This document shows positions 2 to 53,616 of a DNA stretch of 64,000 nt, in pieces; the first letter of the stretch is position 1; each line of letters opens with the position of its first letter. Position numbers and translations under genes: made by a program. The notes beneath the pieces are model-generated. The model saw nothing but the letters and a program-made list of their open reading frames with translations, ran no database searches and was not told the DNA's origin. Source of the stretch: Candidatus Hodarchaeota archaeon (GTDB lineage: Archaea > Asgardarchaeota > Heimdallarchaeia > Hodarchaeales > Hodarchaeaceae); contig JAHQWW010000007.1 in the NCBI GenBank assembly GCA_029856365.1, positions 10,863-74,862 on the forward strand. The letters run 5' to 3'.

Positions 2-2452
2 TTACTCTCAAGGTCGAGAAAACCTGGAGGTTTTAGATTGAGATATGGTCTATCACGTAATACTAGTCAAGGTGCAGCAGGAATCCATCCTGCAACAATG
101 TACCTGACCGAAATGCTCTCTCCAGGCACAAACATAAAAATTGATTTCATGGAACGGCCACTTACAATATTTCCAGTTTCCAGCTTATCTGGTCCATTTG
201 TTGAATTAAAGGATGGTTCAAGCGAGAGAATTGAATCTTTAGCGAGAATTTGTGATATAGAAAATCAGGTAGTGCAGATCTGGGAAATGGGAGACATTCT
301 ACTCTCTCCTGATGATATTCCTGTTACTGAAACTGTCGAATTATCTGCTTGGACAGAAGAATGGTGGAGTCAAGAAATCAAGCACTATATTTACTCGAAA
401 ATGAGATCGCTAGAGAATTTTGCATTAAGTCTAAATATTAACCCCAAAAAGTTAGAAGATTTGTTAACAGAACCAACCCAGTGTAAACCCTCTCCGGAAA
501 TTGCTCTTAATCTAAGTAAGATAAGTAATATACCTATTCATCCCTTCTATTCTTTTAACTGGAATGAAATTGCTATAAGTGATCTAATAAGATTAATTCA
601 GAAACTCAATGATTCCAGTGATGGCTTACTTCCTAATGAAGATGATTTAAAGGAAATTCTTAGACGATTAGGTGTCCCCTTCATTATTTATAAAGATTAC
701 ATTCAAACAGAACGATTTCAATTATTTATTCGAGCATTAAGAGGAAAAGAAGACCAATTAACTAAGTTCATTTCAAAATCATTAAAACCAATAGAAATCG
801 AAAAATTAATTCCAATCCTTACAAAGATTCCTGTACGATCATTATGTCAAAGAAGAATCGGATTGAAAATCATTCGAGTTGAAAAAGCGGAACCTCGACA
901 TATAAATCCACCAGCACACGTACTTTTCCCCATTAGTTCTCATGGTGGTGCCCAAAGAAATCTTTTAAAAGTTAAAAACACAACTAGTGTAGATATTCAG
1001 GTTTCCGAAAGGTTCTGTGAAACATGTAAGGAATCTACCTTTGTTTCATATTGTCTAAAATGCCAACAGAAAACCAAGCAACAATTTGTTTGTAAAAAGG
1101 GGCACATTTCTAGCACACAAACATGTATGGAATGTGGCCAATATGCTTTTTCTGCAAGAGTTAAACCTGTTGATGTGGCAAGATTATTGGAATCAGGCTT
1201 TCAACAGGTAGGATCTCTTGAATTAAAAATAGTTAAAGGAGTTTCCTTTCTCAACAGCAAGAACCGAATACCCGAACACATCATTAAAGGCATATTACGA
1301 GCAAAACACAAAATTTTTGTTTACAAGGACGGGACAAGCCGTTTTGATCAAACCAATGCGCATCTCACCCACTTTACTCCTGAAGAAATTCATATCTCCA
1401 TCAAGGATCTCATAAGATTAGGGTATTCTCACGATGTTAATGGAAATGACTTAACCCAAGAAAATCAGTTAATTGAGATTAATCCTTATGATGTAATAGT
1501 GAGTAAAGCAGCAGGTAATTTTCTTGTAAATTTATCCAATTTCATTGATGATGAATTAGTCTTTTTGTATGATCTTTCACCTTATTATAGAATATATTCA
1601 CTTAAGGATATTATGGGCTCTTTAATTGTGGGTTTGTCACCTTTTTCGATGGTAGCTGTTATAGGTAGAGTAATTGGTTACACGGATAATAATGTTACTT
1701 ATGCTCATCCTCTTTGGCACCTATTAAAAACTCGAAATTGTAACGGGGATATAGACTCAATGACACTGCTCTTAGATGTATTACTTAATTTTTCTACTGA
1801 ATTTATTCCTGCTTCGCGTGGGGGGACAATGGATGCACCATTTATAATCAATCTTTCTGATAAATGGGAAGATACTTCAGTCTATGCAAATTATGATTCT
1901 GTATCGATGAATCTTTTATTTTATAGGAATCTAACTGAAAATCCTTTAAAAGATGAATTATTGTCTTACAAAAAGTCATACCTCATGCCCTCTTTTCCCA
2001 AATTTCATACGATAGATAATATTTCTCATTATAACTTCGAGAATCGTTTTCGTGAGAGTAAAATAGTTTCCAAAATTGAGACCGAATTACGGGTTCTCAG
2101 CCGCATTCGGGGGGTAAAGGAAGGGGAGTTTGTTGAAAATATATTAGAAAACGATTTCCTGCCAAAAATTGCGACCTCATTGACTCGTTTCTTTCTTCAA
2201 CCTGTACGATGCAATACATGTAATACTACCTTCAGACGGATCCCTCTTACAAAATGCCCTGTATGTCATCATCAGAATATGGGACTCACTTTATCAGAAG
2301 GATGGGTTTTAAGATATTTACAAATAATTAACCAGTTAAGAGATAGATATTATACAGACATTTCTGAATATTGTCAATCCTGGGTTGAACTGATTGAATT
2401 AAATAAACGTTTATTATTCGATAAAGGCCCTCGTCCAACAACACTATTTTAA
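2..2452 (+). CDS. polC: DNA polymerase D large subunit DP2, 5'-partial, divergent (catalytic motif NCNGDID)
   Basis: Frame is open from nt 2 (SRKPGGFRLRYGLSRNT). DP2 motifs KGILRAKHKIFVYKDGTSRFD, GRVIG, AHP..H..K.RNC.GD.D, LLLDVLLNFS, RGGTMDAP and C-terminal CxxC..RRIPL..CPxC are present. Confidence 0.93.
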   Translation, partial: LLSRSRKPGGFRLRYGLSRNTSQGAAGIHPATMYLTEMLSPGTNIKIDFMERPLTIFPVSSLSGPFVELKDGSSERIESLARICDIENQVVQIWEMGDILLSPDDIPVTETVELSAWTEEWWSQEIKHYIYSKMRSLENFALSLNINPKKLEDLLTEPTQCKPSPEIALNLSKISNIPIHPFYSFNWNEIAISDLIRLIQKLNDSSDGLLPNEDDLKEILRRLGVPFIIYKDYIQTERFQLFIRALRGKEDQLTKFISKSLKPIEIEKLIPILTKIPVRSLCQRRIGLKIIRVEKAEPRHINPPAHVLFPISSHGGAQRNLLKVKNTTSVDIQVSERFCETCKESTFVSYCLKCQQKTKQQFVCKKGHISSTQTCMECGQYAFSARVKPVDVARLLESGFQQVGSLELKIVKGVSFLNSKNRIPEHIIKGILRAKHKIFVYKDGTSRFDQTNAHLTHFTPEEIHISIKDLIRLGYSHDVNGNDLTQENQLIEINPYDVIVSKAAGNFLVNLSNFIDDELVFLYDLSPYYRIYSLKDIMGSLIVGLSPFSMVAVIGRVIGYTDNNVTYAHPLWHLLKTRNCNGDIDSMTLLLDVLLNFSTEFIPASRGGTMDAPFIINLSDKWEDTSVYANYDSVSMNLLFYRNLTENPLKDELLSYKKSYLMPSFPKFHTIDNISHYNFENRFRESKIVSKIETELRVLSRIRGVKEGEFVENILENDFLPKIATSLTRFFLQPVRCNTCNTTFRRIPLTKCPVCHHQNMGLTLSEGWVLRYLQIINQLRDRYYTDISEYCQSWVELIELNKRLLFDKGPRPTTLF

Positions 2453-2675: not shown

Positions 2676-3332
2676 GTGATTAAAGGGTTGATAGATAACG
2701 AGAAAGAGGTTTTAATAGGCAATCTACTGAAAACTTTGACAACTGGGAGTGTATCGAAGCAAAATAAAGGGATTATATCGATGCCAAGTGACCAACCTGT
2801 GACAGAAGCGGCAAAATTGATGGTAGAGAATCGGATAGGTTCTATCATTATTAAAAATAACCAAATTGAAGGAATTATCACAAAGGGGGATATTATCAAT
2901 CGTGTGGTAGGCCGTGCTTTAGACCCAGGAATTGTTGTAGTTGATGATGTTATGAGTAAACCTGTTTCTTATGTCTCTGAAGATGAAACTTTAGAGAACA
3001 CTATGTTACTAATGGGTCAGGAAAACATCGAACGGATTTTAGTGGTTAAAGATAATGATCTTTCTCAACCTTTAGGGATCGTTTCCACAAATGATATACT
3101 TAAATTTGCTCCAGGATTACTTCGAATTCACAGAGAGCGTCTTCTTATCGAAAATTTTTCTGGAAAGCACCCTGATGATAATAATCGCGAATCTATGAGG
3201 TTTGAAGGTTTTTGTGATGATTGTGGCAACTATTCGGATACTCTCAAAACAGCTAATGGCTATACATTATGTCCAGCCTGTATGGGATCTCAACCAGAAG
3301 AAGAGCAATCCCCTGATGATGATATTATGTGA
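2676..3332 (+). CDS. CBS-domain pair protein with C-terminal Zn ribbon
   Basis: Tandem CBS motifs (EAAKLMVENRIGS..GIITKGDI; VMSKPV..GIVSTNDI) and a CDDCG...CPAC tail. True start may be downstream. Confidence 0.85.
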   Translation: MIKGLIDNEKEVLIGNLLKTLTTGSVSKQNKGIISMPSDQPVTEAAKLMVENRIGSIIIKNNQIEGIITKGDIINRVVGRALDPGIVVVDDVMSKPVSYVSEDETLENTMLLMGQENIERILVVKDNDLSQPLGIVSTNDILKFAPGLLRIHRERLLIENFSGKHPDDNNRESMRFEGFCDDCGNYSDTLKTANGYTLCPACMGSQPEEEQSPDDDIM

Positions 3333-7055: not shown

Positions 7056-8405
7056 TTAGTGAAACTCTTGATACTTCTCACGGATTGTAATTTCTCCTTT
7101 CAAATTTTGTTTCATTAATTCCTTGACTTTTTCCTTTTCACGATAATTTCCTAGGAGATATGCTAGCTTTATATATGCTATTTCGGGTAGAATGTTGAAT
7201 GCATGGATAACACCAGCTTTTTGGAGTCTTCTTCCGCTTTCATATACCGATAGAGCTGTAAAACCATGTAGACATTGAGTAGTCATTACAATAATCATCT
7301 CATTCTCAATAGCTTTTTCAATTGTAGGAATTAAATTGAATGAAACGTGTCCAAGTCCAGTTCCTACTAACACGATTCCTTTAAATCCGGCTTCGATACA
7401 GTAATCTAATATCCCTGGTTGGATACCAGGATAATGGTAAATGAGTCCGACCTTCTCTTCAAAGTTTTTCGTGATATGAACAGGTTTATTTTTCAGTTTG
7501 GCCTTTATAGGTAGATTCTCCTCTTCCATTTCATAAATTATTTTTCCTTCAGTAATTCTACCTAATGGACTTCCTCCAATCGACTTAAATGTATCTCTTC
7601 GACTACTATGCATTTTTCGGACTCTTGTACCTCTATGTATGGTACAAGAAGTGTCTGACGATTTTTCATGCATGACAACTACTACTTCTTTTTTTGCTTG
7701 AGGAGAAGCTGCATATAATACTGAATTATATAGATTAAAGAAGGCATCTGAGGAAGGGCGATCAGAAGACCGCTGAGAACCAGTAATAACGATTGGGAAA
7801 GGTGGATTTGTAATCGAAAAAGAGAGGGCAGCAGCAGTAAAAGCCATTGTATCAGTACCGTGTGTCAGTACAATTCCTTGAGGTGTTTTATTTTGGATTA
7901 AGTGTTCAATTTCTGTCAAGATTTTGATATAGTGTTAAAAAGTAATGTTCTCTGAAAAGATATCAAATAAGAGTCTTGTTTCAACCCGAGCCAATTCTGC
8001 AATTTCAGGAAAAGATGAGAAAAGCTCCTCAGGAGTCAAAGCTGGAATTGTCCCTCCAGTTTGGTAATCCAAGCGAGAAGCAATTGTACCTCCGCAACCT
8101 AATATGGGAACAAAGGGTAATTCAGGTTTTTGGGTTACATTGACCTTTGGAACGTGGTATCTACCTTCAAAACGGCCAATTTTTTTGATCCTATATGTCT
8201 CCCTCGGATTGAATCCAATATTATAACCTGTAGATAGCTTTAGACTAATAAAATCAGTTTCAGCTAGTTCATTCCTTGGTAGTATTACTCCTTTTAGTGA
8301 AGAACCAGCCTTAGTAACCTCTATTTCATCCCAAACTTTTAAACCTTGATTTTTCAACCAATCTAATGTAGATCCTCTGTATCCAGTATATTTCTCTTCC
8401 GACAT
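7056..8405 (-). pseudogene. gatD: Glu-tRNA(Gln) amidotransferase subunit D, interrupted by one in-frame TAA (7935-7937); real nonsense allele or sequence error
   Basis: ORFs 7935..8405 (KLSTGYNIG, GGTIASRLDY.TG) and 7056..7919 (HGTDTM, GSQRSSDRPSSD, RKMHSSRRD) are in the same frame and read ...ENITF*HYIKILTEIE... Confidence 0.85.
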
Positions 8406-8430: not shown

Positions 8431-10350
8431 CTAAACTTGTTTTTTCAAGTGTTTACGTAACTCTTCACTCACAATCTTTCCATCTATTTTCCCACGGGCT
8501 TTTTTCATTACTAATCCCATTAAAGGAGAAAAAGCATCCATCCCACGTTTTTTTACAAGCTCCTGAGAGGTTTTTAGAACCTCGAGAATTATTGTGTTTA
8601 ATTCTTCTTGTGACATTTCACCACCGAAGTGATTCACGATATCTGTCAATGACTTTGTAGGATCTTTACCAAGATTAGTTAAAATATCTGGAATTGCTTC
8701 TTTGGCGAATTTATTCAACACTAGTGCCTCAAAAATTTTTAATAAATGAGCCTCAGTTATATTATTGATATCAACTCCCTCTCTCGAGATAGCGGTCAAG
8801 GTTTGAGTTAAAGTTGTCACAACTGCCTTGATAGGAGCCCCTTTTTCTATTAATTCTTCAAAAATGTCAGCTTTCTCCTCATAGATTAAAGATTCAGCTA
8901 ATTCGTTAGAAATAGAATATTGTTTGTTTAGCCGCTTAATTCGAGCCATAAAATTTTCAGGTAGATTTTTTTCCATCTTAATAACTCGATTTGAGTCAAT
9001 CACTATAGGGGGAAGATCTGTATCTGGATACAGCCTACTCCTACCATGTAAATCTCTTGTGAAGGTAGAAATTCCATTATCATCAACATGTCGAGTTTCT
9101 TGATGAACACCATTGAAAGCAGCAAGTAATCTCTCGTGTACAAAGGAAAGGGCCCTTTGTGCTTCTTCTTTTTTTCCGATTACAATAATAAAAGCTTTTT
9201 TCTGACATTCTTTTGATAATTCATAGATTTCTCTCTCAGAAAAGTTATATTTCAATAAATCCTCATCACTATGGATTATTCCTTTTAGATTAGTGAACGA
9301 TTTAACCCGATCGGAGAGCTCTGTTCCAAATCGTTTATTTGGCTGCAATTCTCGACTTAATAATCCTTGAAATCCAGCAATAGGAAGCATTAAAACTCTT
9401 TTCTTTCGTTTAAAGGCTGATTTAATTATATCAGAAGAAGTGTCTGAAAAAACCTTTGTAACATCAAAAATCTGAAGAGGAATGTCTTGAGGCTGAATGT
9501 TTCGTCTTTGAAGTTCCTTTTGAATAGATATCAAACCCAGTTGTCTTTGGATTTCGATATCAATAGCAATAGGGATCAATTGAAGTAATTGAATCCCCTT
9601 TAACTCAATCCGTTCTCCCTCAGATATACTCACATTTACGTCCTGTCGGACTTTTCCTAATCCTTTACGTACTATTCCAGACGATTTGATTAACATTCCT
9701 AATGTTTTTGCTGCAGAAACTACTTCTGAAGGGGAACTTAAGCTATGATCTGTTACGATCTCAATTAATGGTATTCCTAAACGATCTAATTTGAAAAAGA
9801 TGTTTTTACCCTTGGTTCGATCATTATCCCTACGAGCGGCATCTTCTTCAATATAAATCCAAGAAATAGGTAATTTCTTTTCCTCAATCATCGAAGGATC
9901 TTTCTTAAAGGTTACATATCCATCATAACCAATAAGGACTGTTCTTTGAAATCCACAGGGAACAGAACCGTCTAAATAATTCTTTCTGCAAATATTTGTT
10001 TCTTCAACAATCTTACAGTTCATCATTTTTGCCAATTTTATAGAATCATAGAGAGCTTCATCATTGATTGGAAGGGGAGGTGTTTCGTCTAATTCATAAA
10101 TACAAACACTATCAAAGACTTCATAAAAAATGGTATGATCTTTCTTAAACTCAATAAGTAAAGCTGGGTCATACACTCCCATCTCACCTAATACTGGGCG
10201 AAACTTACGTTGAACAATAGCTTGTGGTTTCTCATTTGTCAAGATTGCGGGACAATGACAAAATAATTTTTTTTCGGTAGAAAGCTGTGCGTGAATTTCT
10301 AACCCTGCTTTGAAACCCAAATTGTCGTAATCAAACATTTTTTCAGTCAT
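8431..10350 (-). CDS. gatE: Glu-tRNA(Gln) amidotransferase subunit E
   Basis: GLEIHAQL, KLFCHC, DGSVPCGFQRT, EEDAAR, LDRLGIPLIEI, RQDVNVSI, RLYPDTDLPP. ATG at 10350 is preferred over the upstream TTG. Confidence 0.95.
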   Translation of the reverse strand: MTEKMFDYDNLGFKAGLEIHAQLSTEKKLFCHCPAILTNEKPQAIVQRKFRPVLGEMGVYDPALLIEFKKDHTIFYEVFDSVCIYELDETPPLPINDEALYDSIKLAKMMNCKIVEETNICRKNYLDGSVPCGFQRTVLIGYDGYVTFKKDPSMIEEKKLPISWIYIEEDAARRDNDRTKGKNIFFKLDRLGIPLIEIVTDHSLSSPSEVVSAAKTLGMLIKSSGIVRKGLGKVRQDVNVSISEGERIELKGIQLLQLIPIAIDIEIQRQLGLISIQKELQRRNIQPQDIPLQIFDVTKVFSDTSSDIIKSAFKRKKRVLMLPIAGFQGLLSRELQPNKRFGTELSDRVKSFTNLKGIIHSDEDLLKYNFSEREIYELSKECQKKAFIIVIGKKEEAQRALSFVHERLLAAFNGVHQETRHVDDNGISTFTRDLHGRSRLYPDTDLPPIVIDSNRVIKMEKNLPENFMARIKRLNKQYSISNELAESLIYEEKADIFEELIEKGAPIKAVVTTLTQTLTAISREGVDINNITEAHLLKIFEALVLNKFAKEAIPDILTNLGKDPTKSLTDIVNHFGGEMSQEELNTIILEVLKTSQELVKKRGMDAFSPLMGLVMKKARGKIDGKIVSEELRKHLKKQV

Positions 10351-10697
10351 TGTGCATCGCATCCAATTGATTACCAAGAATTTGTGAGGAAGATCAAGAT
10401 TAAAAGCCCAGACTTTTAACAATAGTTCATTAAACTAGTTTAACAAAAAACTAGGGACAATCCTGTCTTCAACCAGATAGAATATCCTATATCCTAGAGA
10501 TAAGAACTATTTTAAAAACAATTTTTGGCTGATTGATAACACTATCTGGATCCAAATGGACATATGAATATATATGAAATAATCTCTGATTTCTATTCAG
10601 CCTATAAAGTATAGAAGTAAAAATTTTTAATTTCTGTTCTGTTTCCTACATTCTATGATTAGAAACTTTATTATTGATTGTTCTTGAAGGTAATTTC

Positions 10698-49696: not shown

Positions 49697-51070
49697 TTGA
49701 ATACTAATGCTGATTCAATAAGTTTTCAGACTATTATCGAGTCAGCAGCAATCATAATAACGTATTATGAAGAGAATCAAGTTTCCTTAAGAAGTGCTAT
49801 GAAGATCATTCCAACATTTTTAGAGTCTGTTACTCCAGAAACTTATTCACAAATCCATGCTCTAGTATTTGAAACCGTAAGACATCAGAATGTTCTCAAT
49901 CGGATTATTCATCTCAATTTTCAGAGATTTCTTGCAGATAAAATCCCGAAAAAACTACATAATCTTTTACGGGTTTTAACATATCTTTTGACTATGTCCT
50001 CGGATGTTGAGAACGACCATCTCTTAGAAATAGCTCATTTAATCACTCTTAATTCAATTGATGACCCCAACTTGGTTCATTTACTTAGAAATTATGTTGA
50101 AGATTTGAGGAATTGGGATTTAAGTTCATTTATTAAAACAATTGATGACCCTGCAGAGAAACTAGCAGTTCAATTTTTCCATCCCACATGGTTAATTCGT
50201 GATTGGATTAATTATTATGGTTTAGAAACGACTAAAAGAATTTTAGAATCGAATAATCTTATTAAACCAGTTTATTTACGACTTGATCTAATGAATCATG
50301 ATAAGATGGATATTATTGAACAATTGAGAGAGGAGGAAGTGGAAATCGAACAAGATAAACACCTTTTTGATGTTGTGAAAGTCTTATCATGGAAAATCCC
50401 TGTTCCTCGACTTCCTTCCTTCGTTAAAGGACTTTATTATATTCAGGATAAAGGATCAGCACTTATTTCTCATATATTAGATCCTCAGAATGGAGAGGTG
50501 GTATTAGATGCTTGTGCAGCCCCTGGTGGGAAAACTCTTCACATTGCAGCGTTACAACAGGATTCAGGAACCATTATTGCTCTAGATAACCATTTTCGAA
50601 GATTAACTGAAATGGTAACAAAGGTTAACACTTTTAAGATGAAAAGTATTTCACCAATTTTATATGATCTCCGATTGGGGCTGAAATTTCGAATAAAATT
50701 TGATAAAATCTTAGTAGATGCCCCCTGTTCTGGATCAGGTACCTTTGCATCCCGACCCGATGCTAAATGGCGTGTTGATCGTCACCAGACCAAATGGTTG
50801 AGTCAATTGCAATATTCTCTACTATCGAACGCTTCTATCGTGCTTAGAAACACTCCAACTGCATCATTGGTTTATGCAACTTGTTCTCTTCATCCTATTG
50901 AAAATGAAGGAGTTGTAAAACAATTCCTAGAAAATCATCCAGACTTTGTACTACAACCTCAAAAGATCTTTATCGGAACATCTAGCCCAGAATTCCCGTT
51001 AGCGCAACGTCTCTTCCCGCACTTGACTCAAACGGAAGGTTTTTCCATATTTAAACTTGGATGGAATTAG
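49697..51070 (+). CDS. RsmB/NOP2/Sun family RNA m5C methyltransferase
   Basis: LDACAAPGGKT, FDKILVDAPCSGSG and LVYATCSL...ENE. Confidence 0.93.
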   Translation: MNTNADSISFQTIIESAAIIITYYEENQVSLRSAMKIIPTFLESVTPETYSQIHALVFETVRHQNVLNRIIHLNFQRFLADKIPKKLHNLLRVLTYLLTMSSDVENDHLLEIAHLITLNSIDDPNLVHLLRNYVEDLRNWDLSSFIKTIDDPAEKLAVQFFHPTWLIRDWINYYGLETTKRILESNNLIKPVYLRLDLMNHDKMDIIEQLREEEVEIEQDKHLFDVVKVLSWKIPVPRLPSFVKGLYYIQDKGSALISHILDPQNGEVVLDACAAPGGKTLHIAALQQDSGTIIALDNHFRRLTEMVTKVNTFKMKSISPILYDLRLGLKFRIKFDKILVDAPCSGSGTFASRPDAKWRVDRHQTKWLSQLQYSLLSNASIVLRNTPTASLVYATCSLHPIENEGVVKQFLENHPDFVLQPQKIFIGTSSPEFPLAQRLFPHLTQTEGFSIFKLGWN

Positions 51071-53616
51071 CCAAAGAATTCCATTAAATTTACTTGACCA
51101 GTAGAAACCTCGTCAACATCTATATCCAGTGCTCCAAACAGCTGATCAAAAATGGAATCAACCATTGATTTGTACGCTTTCACATCAACCTTTGTTTTAT
51201 CATTCATTAATTCAATAGGAGTCACCCGATCACCTGTTCTCGTTTTAACAAAGCGAATTAATTGGCCTGCTTTGATAAAAGAACTCCGACGCTTCTTATC
51301 ATCATAGTTATGTTGTTTTTGATAATATTTCTCCAGTTGATTTGCTGCTTTCACATGTTGTGCTTTCACTTTGTACCTACTTAACGGTTGTGTAAGTTGC
51401 ATAGTGATCGCTAAATCTTCTCCAGAGTAGAGTTGTTTTTCCAATTTATGATAGATATCTCTGACTAGTTCTTTCACCTCTTTTTTCGCATTTTTAAATT
51501 CCTCCTCTGTATTGACTTGTGATAAAATTATCAAAACACTGTTGAATCCTTCCTGTAAAAATGGAGGAGTATTTCTTTTTTTTCCCATCAGTCCTTTAAC
51601 ATCGATGCTAGAGTCAGGATATACCCCAAAGTAATTCTTTTTGCGTTCTGAGAGAACAACATACCTGTAGAATTTTTCCATCTCCAACCTCACTCCCAAA
51701 TTTTCTTGGCTCCAAGTAATAATCTCATCAATCTGTTCTTTATTGGGTTTATGTAGAAAAACAGAATCAGTGTCACCATAGAGAACCTGAATACCCAAAC
51801 TCTGAGCTTTTTGTATAGTTTTTTTAATTGCATCGCGGCCATATGCTGTTGTGGAGTCAGCGACAGGAAGACAGTACAATGGAAATCTGTCACTGCCTAT
51901 GACCCCGTACGAAGCATTAATTAGTACTTTTAGGCTTCTTTCCAAGATACGTAAAAAATTTTTATGAGGAGTGTCTTTTTTCGACTCGGGTTTGAGCCAG
52001 TAGACACGTACATCTTTAATAAAACCAATAATGTCAGCTACAATTCCACGGTTCTTCTGGCAAACCCAATAATTTGTTTGGGGTACAATATTGTTCTCGC
52101 ATTCTTTATGAGAACAGTAAATTGTTTCGTAACTCAGATTAAAAGTTCCAATGATAGAAGGATAAAGAGAAGCAAAGTCCATGACTGTAACATTGAAATG
52201 AACGCCTGGAACAGGATCGATAACCAAGGCTCCCTTATATTTTTTTCCTTTTATTATAGCCTTCGAACTGGCGTGTGTTCCTTTTATTGAAAGATCTTCT
52301 TGATTTGGGATGAGGTATCCCCTACGACGATGTTCGTAATAAAAAAGACTTCTTACCCAGTTGGATACGCTAGTACGTACCAGATCATCAATCGGTATTC
52401 TAGAAATACGAGCTAAAATGAATATTAAGTTTAAAGGTGTTTTATTATCGAATAATAGAAGGTTTAAAGTAATTTTAGCATCTCGCACGCAATAAGAAAT
52501 TAACTCCCACTCTGATAATTCTGAAATCTCCTTTTTTAATGGGATTTTCCCAATTCCAAACAATGATCGGGTAATTGTGTCAAGAGTTTCCTCTCTATAT
52601 CGATTTCCAAATGCATAGCCTCGAATAGCAACATTATGATAAAATCGATACATGTCTAAATGTAGTGCCTGCTTAAAGTTACAACTTTTATTTCTACGAT
52701 TCCATATGATAGGACTATGAGTACCAATCTTTAGGTGTTTTGCACGTTCGTGAAGATACGGGAAATCAAAGTTGTCTCCATTAAAAGTAACAACAACTGA
52801 ATATTTTCTTAGAATCTCAAAAGCTTGTTTTAGAAGGGATGATTCATTAGTGAATCTTTGAATTTGAACATGAAGGGGCAGCTCTTTAGGTTTATTACCC
52901 TTATCTATGCCCTTACGCTCCAGAACCAAAGCAATTTCGTTGCCATCACTATCAGCGAAACAAATACAAATTATTCGAAATTTTGGGTCTGCAGCTTGAG
53001 GAATCTGTCCCTTTTTATACTCTGTTTCGATATCACAAGCCACTATAGGCATTTCTGGAATTTCTTGTGTAAAATCATCCTGAAAAACCTCGCTTAATCC
53101 CTCATATTTGGCTAAATGCTCGATAATGCTTTGTGGAATGTCCAATCCAGAACTCATACTTTGAGATCGAATAAATCTTTTATGATCAGAATCCCACCAA
53201 TAACGCCTTCCAGGTATAATTTGGACATCATAAATCCAATTTTGATGGTATTTAATCCTAGACTCCCATGTTTCTCCAACAATATCTCTTACCTTAGGAA
53301 CTTCACTGGGGGTGGGAGTCACAATTCGTGTGAGTTCTTCATCTGTCTCATTCAGGATGTCTCTTTTTCTAATAGTGTCGATCCTCTTTACTGTTCCACG
53401 TGGAAACTCAATTTCTTGTATTTTCTGAAGTGGTTCTCGACTAAAGCAATATGGTTCATGATCATAGGTATCAGTAATATATATCACTTTTTTCTTTTCT
53501 ACGTCATATAATTTGATTCCAGCGCCATTTGTTTTCGCATCATACACAGTACTTAAAACAAAATAATCTTTGCCTGCTCCCAGTGCCTCCTTCCAGTACA
53601 CTGAATTTGGCTTCAT
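51067..53616 (-). CDS. polB: Family B DNA polymerase (PolB1-like)
   Basis: Exonuclease DIET, FNGDNFDFPY, YCVRDA; polymerase DFASLYPSII, KVLINASYG, YGDTDS, KKNY; PIP box QVNLMEFF. Confidence 0.96.
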   Translation of the reverse strand: MKPNSVYWKEALGAGKDYFVLSTVYDAKTNGAGIKLYDVEKKKVIYITDTYDHEPYCFSREPLQKIQEIEFPRGTVKRIDTIRKRDILNETDEELTRIVTPTPSEVPKVRDIVGETWESRIKYHQNWIYDVQIIPGRRYWWDSDHKRFIRSQSMSSGLDIPQSIIEHLAKYEGLSEVFQDDFTQEIPEMPIVACDIETEYKKGQIPQAADPKFRIICICFADSDGNEIALVLERKGIDKGNKPKELPLHVQIQRFTNESSLLKQAFEILRKYSVVVTFNGDNFDFPYLHERAKHLKIGTHSPIIWNRRNKSCNFKQALHLDMYRFYHNVAIRGYAFGNRYREETLDTITRSLFGIGKIPLKKEISELSEWELISYCVRDAKITLNLLLFDNKTPLNLIFILARISRIPIDDLVRTSVSNWVRSLFYYEHRRRGYLIPNQEDLSIKGTHASSKAIIKGKKYKGALVIDPVPGVHFNVTVMDFASLYPSIIGTFNLSYETIYCSHKECENNIVPQTNYWVCQKNRGIVADIIGFIKDVRVYWLKPESKKDTPHKNFLRILERSLKVLINASYGVIGSDRFPLYCLPVADSTTAYGRDAIKKTIQKAQSLGIQVLYGDTDSVFLHKPNKEQIDEIITWSQENLGVRLEMEKFYRYVVLSERKKNYFGVYPDSSIDVKGLMGKKRNTPPFLQEGFNSVLIILSQVNTEEEFKNAKKEVKELVRDIYHKLEKQLYSGEDLAITMQLTQPLSRYKVKAQHVKAANQLEKYYQKQHNYDDKKRRSSFIKAGQLIRFVKTRTGDRVTPIELMNDKTKVDVKAYKSMVDSIFDQLFGALDIDVDEVSTGQVNLMEFFG

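What the first reader, a model, noticed from the sequence alone, without database searches (positions are those of the whole stretch)
1730..1756. PolD large subunit with a substituted catalytic aspartate (NCNGDID instead of NCDGDED)
Seen: codon 1742-1744 is AAC (Asn) where DP2 normally has the first Asp of the Mg-binding DGD. Other normally conserved positions also differ: GLSPFSMVA vs GLAPHTSAG, KTRNC vs KRRNC, and the C-terminus RPTTLF lacks a clear PIP box. The Zn-binding modules are intact. Established: the CDGD aspartates are required for PolD catalysis, and eukaryotic Pol alpha/delta/epsilon C-terminal domains are thought to derive from DP2. Inference: this is an inactivated DP2 paralog retained as a structural or scaffold subunit, relevant to the PolD-to-PolB replisome transition.
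Basis: partly seen in the sequence, partly recalled or inferred. Interest (0 to 1): 0.72.

Follow-up and report, generated by a model that had tools for sequence, protein, structure and literature searches.

The report
Polymerase-dead PolD subunit in Hodarchaeales
This Asgard archaeon (Hodarchaeales) keeps its only copy of the main archaeal DNA-copying enzyme whole and under selection although the catalytic site is broken, most likely as a scaffold while B-family polymerases copy the DNA; a 2020 paper noted this briefly for a genome of the same genus.

Summary
Observation confirmed: codon 1742-1744 is AAC (Asn872) at the catalytic Asp956 position of PolD DP2. Assemblies from two other studies agree. 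It is not a paralog: it is the only DP2 here and in 22 of 23 other Hodarchaeales genomes, including a single-contig chromosome. The Asp is lost in 44 of 45 family sequences but kept in 70 of 70 other DP2s; 14 also lack the second Asp. Three more residues that matter in mutagenesis (R952, H923, K392) are replaced too. The gene is intact (1107 aa), under purifying selection (dN/dS 0.07-0.27), keeps its zinc cysteines and is predicted to fold like PolD. DP1 keeps 6 of 7 metal ligands, but its proofreading channel is eroded. The genome has an intact Pol-epsilon-like PolB (B10), found only in this order, and a PolB1. Best reading: a dead DP2 kept with DP1 as a replisome adaptor; the role is inferred. 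Kazlauskas et al. 2020 (PMC7544198) indicated inactive DP2 in Heimdall B3/LC3, and B3 is in this genus. This scan has reported the same feature on at least six other genomes. Real and interesting, but a new member of a known case.

The parts
2..2452 (+). DP2 (PolD large subunit) gene, residues 292-1107 plus stop; residues 1-291 lie upstream of the window (gene = G000:C91:9991-13314)
   Evidence: PF03833, PF24844, PF24846; TM 0.86 to 8PPT/6T8H
1730..1756 (+). Eroded acidic (a) motif: T868 for R952, N872 for catalytic D956 (codon 1742-1744), I875 for E959; D874 (D958) kept here
137..157 (+). Eroded basic (b) motif: K-x-E-R-P-G-K reads K-I-D-F-M-E-R; critical K392 is Arg343, the invariant P and G are gone
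1640..1648 (+). Eroded selectivity (s) motif: PHT reads PFS; steric-gate His (P. abyssi H923, 9N H931) is Phe839
866..886 (+). Eroded R-M-G-R-P-E-K motif, now K-I-I-R-V-E-K
1016..1135 (+). Zn-I/Zn-II region; C630, C633, C642, C645, C655, C666, C669 invariant in the family
2129..2449 (+). C-terminal domain with Zn-III (C1028, C1031, C1043, C1046; the DP1-binding module in P. abyssi); lowest or near-lowest dN of the protein; exo-channel R1114 and R1178 replaced; ends in a conserved GPRPTTLF tail with no canonical cPIP
51067..53616 (-). PolB1-type polymerase (NF004417 above its cut-off) with intact motif A, YGDTDS and a C-terminal PIP box; one candidate replacement replicase, not linked to DP2 by operon

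Best explanation
This is the single-copy DP2 of Hodarchaeales, turned into a pseudo-polymerase. The fold, zinc modules and DP1-binding C-terminal domain are kept, while all three catalytic motifs of the two-barrel core have decayed, so it most likely no longer adds nucleotides. DNA synthesis is done by B-family polymerases: the order-specific Pol-epsilon-N-like B10 and/or PolB1. The DP1-DP2 heterodimer is most likely kept as a non-catalytic replisome adaptor. In Thermococcales DP1's N-terminal domain binds GINS/CMG and stimulates the helicase, and DP2's C-terminal region binds primase and PCNA. Shown here: motif loss, single copy, selection, predicted fold, intact PolBs. Taken from literature on other archaea: the importance of the residues and the hub interactions. 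Inferred: that the Hodarchaeales complex still makes those contacts. Odds: polymerase-dead about 0.9; adaptor role given that, about 0.65.
For: D956 position: N42/S2/D1 of 45 family rows vs D 70/70 in others; D958 lost in 14 rows on two separate branches; R952, H923 and PG of the b-motif lost in all 45. Mutating D964 or D966 abolishes activity, K398A nearly does, R960A reduces it, H931Y abolishes it in 9N PolD; K-to-R at the equivalent RNAP lysine abolishes transcription (PMC7708050). The two f2 genomes are eroded too, G022 with no recognisable a-motif. Single DP2 match in 23 of 24 order genomes. dN/dS 0.07-0.27 over six pairs, with the CTD, catalytic barrel and N-terminal domain the most constrained parts. 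AlphaFold pLDDT 90.8, TM 0.86 to PolD. DP1 present in 18 of 21 genus relatives, with a conserved N-terminal helical domain. B10 has intact ExoI, motif A and DTDG (intein in G000), and is in 16 of 17 family genomes and 0 of 233 other Asgard genomes at E<=1e-40. Hub roles of PolD: PMC9023282, PMC8096248.
Against: No biochemical test exists, and the published mutants are mostly Asp-to-Ala in Thermococcales, not Asp-to-Asn. Asn872 is itself conserved (42/45) and D874, D876, R869, K867 are kept here, so the pocket is not freely drifting. The canonical C-terminal cPIP that binds PriL and PCNA is absent. One Logan protein (P0007) nested in the clade has Asp at this site again. The B10/dead-DP2 match is one evolutionary event, so it carries no statistical weight. 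PolB1 is also in relatives with intact DP2.
Confidence: 0.6

Rival explanations
1. DP2 is polymerase-dead but is kept mainly as the DNA-holding and stabilising partner of a still-active DP1 nuclease, which now works in repair or in trans-proofreading rather than as a replisome scaffold.
For: DP1 keeps D360, H362, D404, H497, H560, H562 in 19/19 and H451 in 18/19 family sequences; N450 is Glu in 19/19, a fixed change that could still bind metal. DP1 dN/dS 0.14-0.22. Kazlauskas 2020 says B3 DP1 might still be active.
Against: Exo-channel residues that matter for proofreading in P. abyssi (PMC10721889) are eroded: the F586 loop is unconserved (Y/F in 11/11 other Heimdallarchaeia, none in the family), P413 kept in 4/19, DP2 R1114 and R1178 replaced, and the KH loop G-P-I-R-x-x-G-G-T decayed. 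LC3-type DP1 is reported inactive.
Confidence: 0.2
2. DP2 has been co-opted for DNA uptake or recombination: it is translationally coupled behind a type IV pilus operon that has radA divergently transcribed at its other end.
For: DP2 starts 6 nt after the stop of the last pilin-like gene. radA, the pilus ATPase, two TadC-like genes, pilin-like genes and DP2 keep this order in 8 of 8 genus genomes checked. The ATPase is on other contigs or far away in Heimdallarchaeia with intact DP2.
Against: The downstream CBS and NFACT genes are equally syntenic, so this may be plain genus-level synteny. In the two f2 genomes with eroded DP2 the ATPase is on another contig and no pilus gene was found beside DP2. 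No known link between PolD and pili.
Confidence: 0.08
3. The enzyme keeps low or altered polymerase activity, using N872 with D874/D876 as ligands, or regaining Asp by deamidation of the Asn-Gly pair or A-to-I editing of the codon.
For: N872, G873, D876, K867 and R869 are conserved. Asn-Gly is the most deamidation-prone dipeptide (own knowledge). One relative has Asp back.
Against: 14 of 45 family rows lack D958 as well, and the b- and s-motifs are eroded in all, so restoring one Asp would not rebuild the site. P0007 has the same eroded b- and s-motifs, which fits drift rather than restored function.
Confidence: 0.07
4. It is an inactive paralog beside an active DP2 that is missing from this 84%-complete assembly.
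For: G000 is 83.6% complete.
Against: One DP2 match per genome in 23 of 24 order genomes, always the eroded form, including single-contig G009 and 99%-complete G007.
Confidence: 0.02
5. Sequencing error or a decaying pseudogene.
For: Long branch in the tree; dN/dS is higher than in two canonical pairs (0.04-0.05); G015's copy is split into two frames.
Against: Same base in assemblies from other studies; conserved across more than 40 sequences down to 38% identity; full length and dN/dS far below 1.
Confidence: 0.01

Closest known systems
Heimdall_B3/LC3-like PolD (Kazlauskas et al. 2020, NAR, PMC7544198, section on second subunits, Figs 7, S15, S16)
   Same: DP2 without an active site, B10 PolB with a C-terminal Zn finger, DP1 with five motifs.
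   Different: B3 has lost both aspartates (SCNGATD); this genome keeps the second. The paper covers two MAGs and its text implies the inactive DP2 rather than describing it (Fig. S16 is an image I could not view). Order-wide extent, selection, motif-by-motif loss and exo-channel erosion are added here.
Canonical PolD DP2 (P. abyssi 6HMS/6T8H/8PPT; T. kodakarensis 6KNB)
   Same: Domain order, predicted fold (TM 0.86), zinc modules, DP1 partner gene; 114 of 154 near-invariant positions kept.
   Different: a-, b- and s-motifs eroded, KH loop decayed, no cPIP; below the NCBIfam equivalog cut-offs (TIGR00354 687.8 vs 702.15).
Non-catalytic half of eukaryotic Pol epsilon (Pol2 C-terminal module + Dpb2)
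   Same: A dead polymerase fold plus a DP2-type Zn CTD and a DP1-type subunit, kept beside an active Pol-epsilon-N-like PolB; works-like analogy only.
   Different: The dead module in Pol2 is a PolB fused in the same chain; here it is a two-barrel DP2 on a separate gene. Feng et al. 2025 (PMC12680538) saw no two-hybrid binding of the Hodarchaeal B10 CTD to DP1.
Baldrarchaeia/Aenigmarchaeota PolB-DP2CTD fusions; Nitrososphaera_GCA_002499005-like group
   Same: Other archaeal lineages in which PolD catalysis was given up while DP1 was kept.
   Different: Baldr/Aenigma lost DP2 and fused its CTD to a PolB; here the whole DP2 stays as a separate full-length protein.

Membership tests
PolD large subunit (DP2) protein family | N-terminal, central and catalytic DP2 domains in one chain | tested here: met
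   PF03833, PF24844, PF24846 all above cut-off
PolD large subunit (DP2) protein family | Two-barrel PolD fold with Zn-I/II/III | tested here: met
   Predicted model pLDDT 90.8, TM 0.86 to 8PPT_B; Zn cysteines invariant. The alignment used included canonical DP2s.
Catalytically active PolD | a-motif NxDGD with both aspartates | tested here: not met
   N872 at D956
Catalytically active PolD | b-motif lysine (K392) in E-R-P-G-K | tested here: not met
   Reads D-F-M-E-R; P, G, K are 70/70 in other DP2s
Catalytically active PolD | s-motif PHT steric gate | tested here: not met
   PFS; His 70/70 in others, 0/45 in the family
Catalytically active PolD | C-terminal cPIP for primase and PCNA | tested here: not met
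   Ends GPRPTTLF, without the L-x-x-F-F pattern
Catalytically active PolD | Measured DNA polymerase activity | not testable with these tools
   Needs a primer-extension assay
Heimdall_B3/LC3-like group (Kazlauskas 2020) | DP2 in one clade with the B3_Heim DP2 and lacking the active site | tested here: met
   P0001 and P0032 in one clade, SH-aLRT 99; 52% identity
Heimdall_B3/LC3-like group (Kazlauskas 2020) | Co-occurring B10 PolB with C-terminal Zn finger | tested here: met
   G000:C18, 1901-aa frame with an intein in the DTDG motif
Heimdall_B3/LC3-like group (Kazlauskas 2020) | DP1 present, with five phosphoesterase motifs in the B3 branch | tested here: met
   G000:C81; 6 of 7 ligands kept, N450 is Glu
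Inactive paralog beside an active DP2 | A second, canonical DP2 in the same genome | tested here: not met
Pol-epsilon-like holoenzyme (B10 + DP2 + DP1 in one complex) | Physical binding of B10 to DP2/DP1 | not testable with these tools
   Needs co-expression or pull-down; the literature two-hybrid test is negative for B10 CTD with DP1 only

The most novel reading that the evidence does not exclude
Hodarchaeales run a split forerunner or analogue of Pol epsilon: the dead DP2 with DP1 is the non-catalytic half that docks on GINS/CMG and primase and physically recruits the Pol-epsilon-N-like B10, catching the PolD-to-PolB handover with the old scaffold still whole in a lineage proposed as sister to eukaryotes.
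Probability: 0.15. Interest if true: 0.75.

Novelty: new member of a known kind. Interest (0 to 1): 0.36.

Why it matters
PolD is the essential replicase in many archaea, and eukaryotes kept only its DP2 C-terminal domain and an inactivated DP1. A whole Asgard order that has killed DP2 catalysis but keeps the protein under selection, while gaining the closest archaeal relative of Pol epsilon's active half, is a living model for that handover. It allows a direct test of which non-catalytic jobs of PolD (helicase coupling, primase hand-off, DP1 support) cannot be dropped. The core fact was indicated in 2020 and has not been followed up in the papers I could search; Feng et al. 2025 does not mention it in the passages read. 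So the value is in extent and testability, not discovery.

Tried and rejected
Second DP2: tblastn, six-frame motif scan and Pfam searches found none. Raw reads: none offered, only Logan contigs; no RNA holder listed, so expression and editing could not be examined. Complex prediction of DP2 (1-395 and 575-1107) with the last 63 residues of B10: 'no answer', score 0.00, partner fold uncertain, no controls run; not used for or against binding (two earlier submissions failed). GINS: PF05916 found nothing in G000, but it rang in only 1 of 14 control genomes and G000 is 84% complete, so nothing is concluded; PriL and PCNA are present. Shifted catalytic pair: the D-I-D in the motif is not new, since canonical DP2 already has D-E-D there. 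P. abyssi R193 could not be mapped reliably (gapped column). DP1 R499 is uninformative because other Heimdallarchaeia lack it too. The tree was a quick LG+G4 run with long branches; it shows the family clade but not where it attaches, so vertical descent from the Heimdallarchaeia DP2 is assumed from single-copy status, not tested. dN/dS is pairwise Nei-Gojobori, and some pairs are saturated or very close. Literature search covers open-access papers only.

Full report
Observation. The window opens inside a DP2 gene (frame 2..2452). In the assembly the gene runs G000:C91:9991-13314 and encodes 1107 aa with no break. Bases 1730-1756 read T-R-N-C-N-G-D-I-D with AAC at 1742-1744. This aligns to P. 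abyssi R952-D960, putting Asn872 on catalytic D956. Contigs from two studies other than the possible source show the same base. All three DP2 Pfam domains score above cut-off. The AlphaFold model (pLDDT 90.8, pTM 0.89) matches PolD structures at TM 0.85-0.86.

Who it belongs to. The closest loci are titled Hodarchaeota, Hodarchaeales or Heimdallarchaeota. One same-genus genome, G002, is Heimdallarchaeota B3_Heim (P0032, contig 87,993 bases), and its B10 C-terminus matches the PWI48375 fragment printed in the supplement of PMC7544198. G009 has the length of chromosome CP070695.

Not a paralog. G000 has one DP2 by tblastn, motif scan and HMM. Across the order, 23 of 24 genomes have exactly one match and the miss is a 71%-complete genome. 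A permissive search of five well-assembled genomes, including single-contig G009, found no second copy. Other Heimdallarchaeia families carry a canonical N-C/A-D-G-D-E-D motif.

How far the site has decayed. I aligned 45 family rows (two are the same protein) with 70 other DP2s. At D956 the family has N 42, S 2, D 1; the others have D in 70 of 70. At D958 the family has D 31, V 9, A 3, N 2, and the losses fall on two separate branches. R952, the steric-gate H923, T924 and the P and G of the b-motif are lost in all; K392 is Arg in 28 rows and other residues in nearly all the rest. In Thermococcus 9N PolD, mutating either aspartate abolishes synthesis, K398A leaves under 15% of primers extended by one base, R960A limits extension, and H931Y abolishes activity; K-to-R at the equivalent RNA polymerase lysine abolishes transcription (PMC7708050). 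This protein therefore differs at four tested positions at once. The two genomes of the other family are eroded too, one beyond recognition. In all, 40 of 154 positions near-invariant in other DP2s are lost, clustering in the KH loop, the b-motif and the C-terminal DNA-contacting helix. One exception, P0007 from a single Logan contig, has Asp again but keeps the eroded b- and s-motifs and is nested deep in the Asn clade; I read it as reversion by drift or an error.

It is maintained. Pairwise dN/dS for DP2 is 0.07-0.27 over six pairs (0.09-0.14 for the four of useful distance), similar to B10 (0.09-0.19) and lower than DP1 (0.14-0.22). Two canonical pairs give 0.04-0.05, so constraint is somewhat relaxed but strong. 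The C-terminal Zn-III domain, the catalytic barrel and the N-terminal domain have the lowest dN. All eleven Zn-region cysteines checked are invariant, and the family has fixed its own residues in the N- and C-terminal domains.

Partner and replacements. DP1 is on another contig and is found in 18 of 21 genus relatives. It keeps six of seven metal ligands and H451, with N450 fixed as Glu, and a conserved N-terminal helical domain. Residues of the proofreading channel defined in PMC10721889 are eroded in both subunits: the DP1 F586 loop and P413, and DP2 R1114 and R1178. G000 encodes the Pol-epsilon-N-like B10 with intact ExoI, motif A and an intein-split DTDG. B10 was found in 16 of 17 family genomes and none of 233 other Asgard genomes searched at E<=1e-40, and also in the two f2 genomes, one as a fragment. 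This is one gain, not many independent ones. A PolB1-type enzyme with a PIP box lies in this window at 51067-53616; relatives with intact DP2 have it too. Either could be the replicase.

How it most likely works. Shown: a single, full-length, selected DP2 with a broken catalytic site, and intact PolBs in the same genome. From other archaea: DP1N binds GINS and PolD stimulates the CMG-like helicase (PMC9023282); DP2's C-terminal region binds PriL and PCNA (PMC8096248); Heimdallarchaeal PriL binds DP2-CTD (PMC12680538). Inferred: the DP1-DP2 dimer survives because of these hub contacts, much as yeast needs the dead half of Pol epsilon more than its active half (PMC7544198). The weak point is that the canonical cPIP is gone; a different conserved tail replaces it. 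I put polymerase-dead at about 0.9 and the full adaptor explanation at 0.6. Rivals are a DP1 nuclease role (0.2), a role tied to the adjacent pilus-radA locus (0.08), residual activity (0.07), paralog (0.02) and artefact (0.01).

Comparison with what is known. Kazlauskas et al. 2020 define a Heimdall_B3/LC3-like group, contrast it with AB125 that encodes 'active DP2 and DP1', tie it to B10 acquisition, and show the DP2 active-site alignment in Fig. S16 (the figure itself could not be viewed). This protein is a member of that group by clade, B10 and DP1 tests. It is a member of the DP2 family but fails the sequence tests for active PolD. Earlier notes of this scan reached the same reading on other genomes; I had reached it before looking, and they are not counted as support.

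Verdict. Real, order-wide and under selection, not a paralog, briefly known since 2020 and untested. Interest 0.36; new member of a known kind.

Noticed in passing
L121:1-9991 (G000:C91, just upstream of the window): DP2 starts 6 nt after the last pilin-like gene of a type IV pilus operon (ATPase, two TadC-like genes, pilin-like genes), with radA divergent at the other end. The order is kept in 8 of 8 genus genomes checked. The ATPase is 90-98% identical across a genus whose DP2s are only 50-84% identical.
   Followed up: partly
window 51067-53616 (-): Crenarchaeal-type PolB1 (NF004417 above cut-off) with intact motifs and a PIP box; homologues in 39 of 41 Heimdallarchaeia genomes searched.
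   Followed up: partly
L122:5883-11585 (-) (G000:C18): Pol-epsilon-like B10 carries a LAGLIDADG intein inserted inside the catalytic DTDG motif; several relatives have long frames (1914-2021 aa) that suggest inteins too.
   Followed up: partly
L079:736-2289 (G000:C81): DP1 has G-E-H-D in place of G-N-H-D in all 19 family sequences (one G-E-R-D), and its proofreading loop around F586 is unconserved.
   Followed up: partly
L133:1246-4533: P0007 has Asp back at the first catalytic position while the other motifs stay eroded; single Logan contig.
   Followed up: partly
L060:7764-11084 (-) (G015): DP2 is split into 238-aa and 868-aa frames in this single-contig, 70%-complete genome; assembly error or real break not resolved.
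   Followed up: no
L121:1-1554 (-): The radA frame continues at least 170 residues past the Rad51 domain into a helical, TPR-like stretch and runs off the contig; a second RadA-like gene (71% identical) is on C34. Possible fusion or misjoin.
   Followed up: no
window 7056-8405 (-): A GatD/asparaginase-like sequence appears in two consecutive ORFs (156 aa and 287 aa) next to a GatE-like gene at 8431-10422 (assignment from motifs by eye, not searched). Possible frameshift or split gene.
   Followed up: no
window 2676-3332 (+): CBS-domain protein with a C-terminal Cys-pair (zinc ribbon-like) segment directly after DP2, syntenic across the genus.
   Followed up: no
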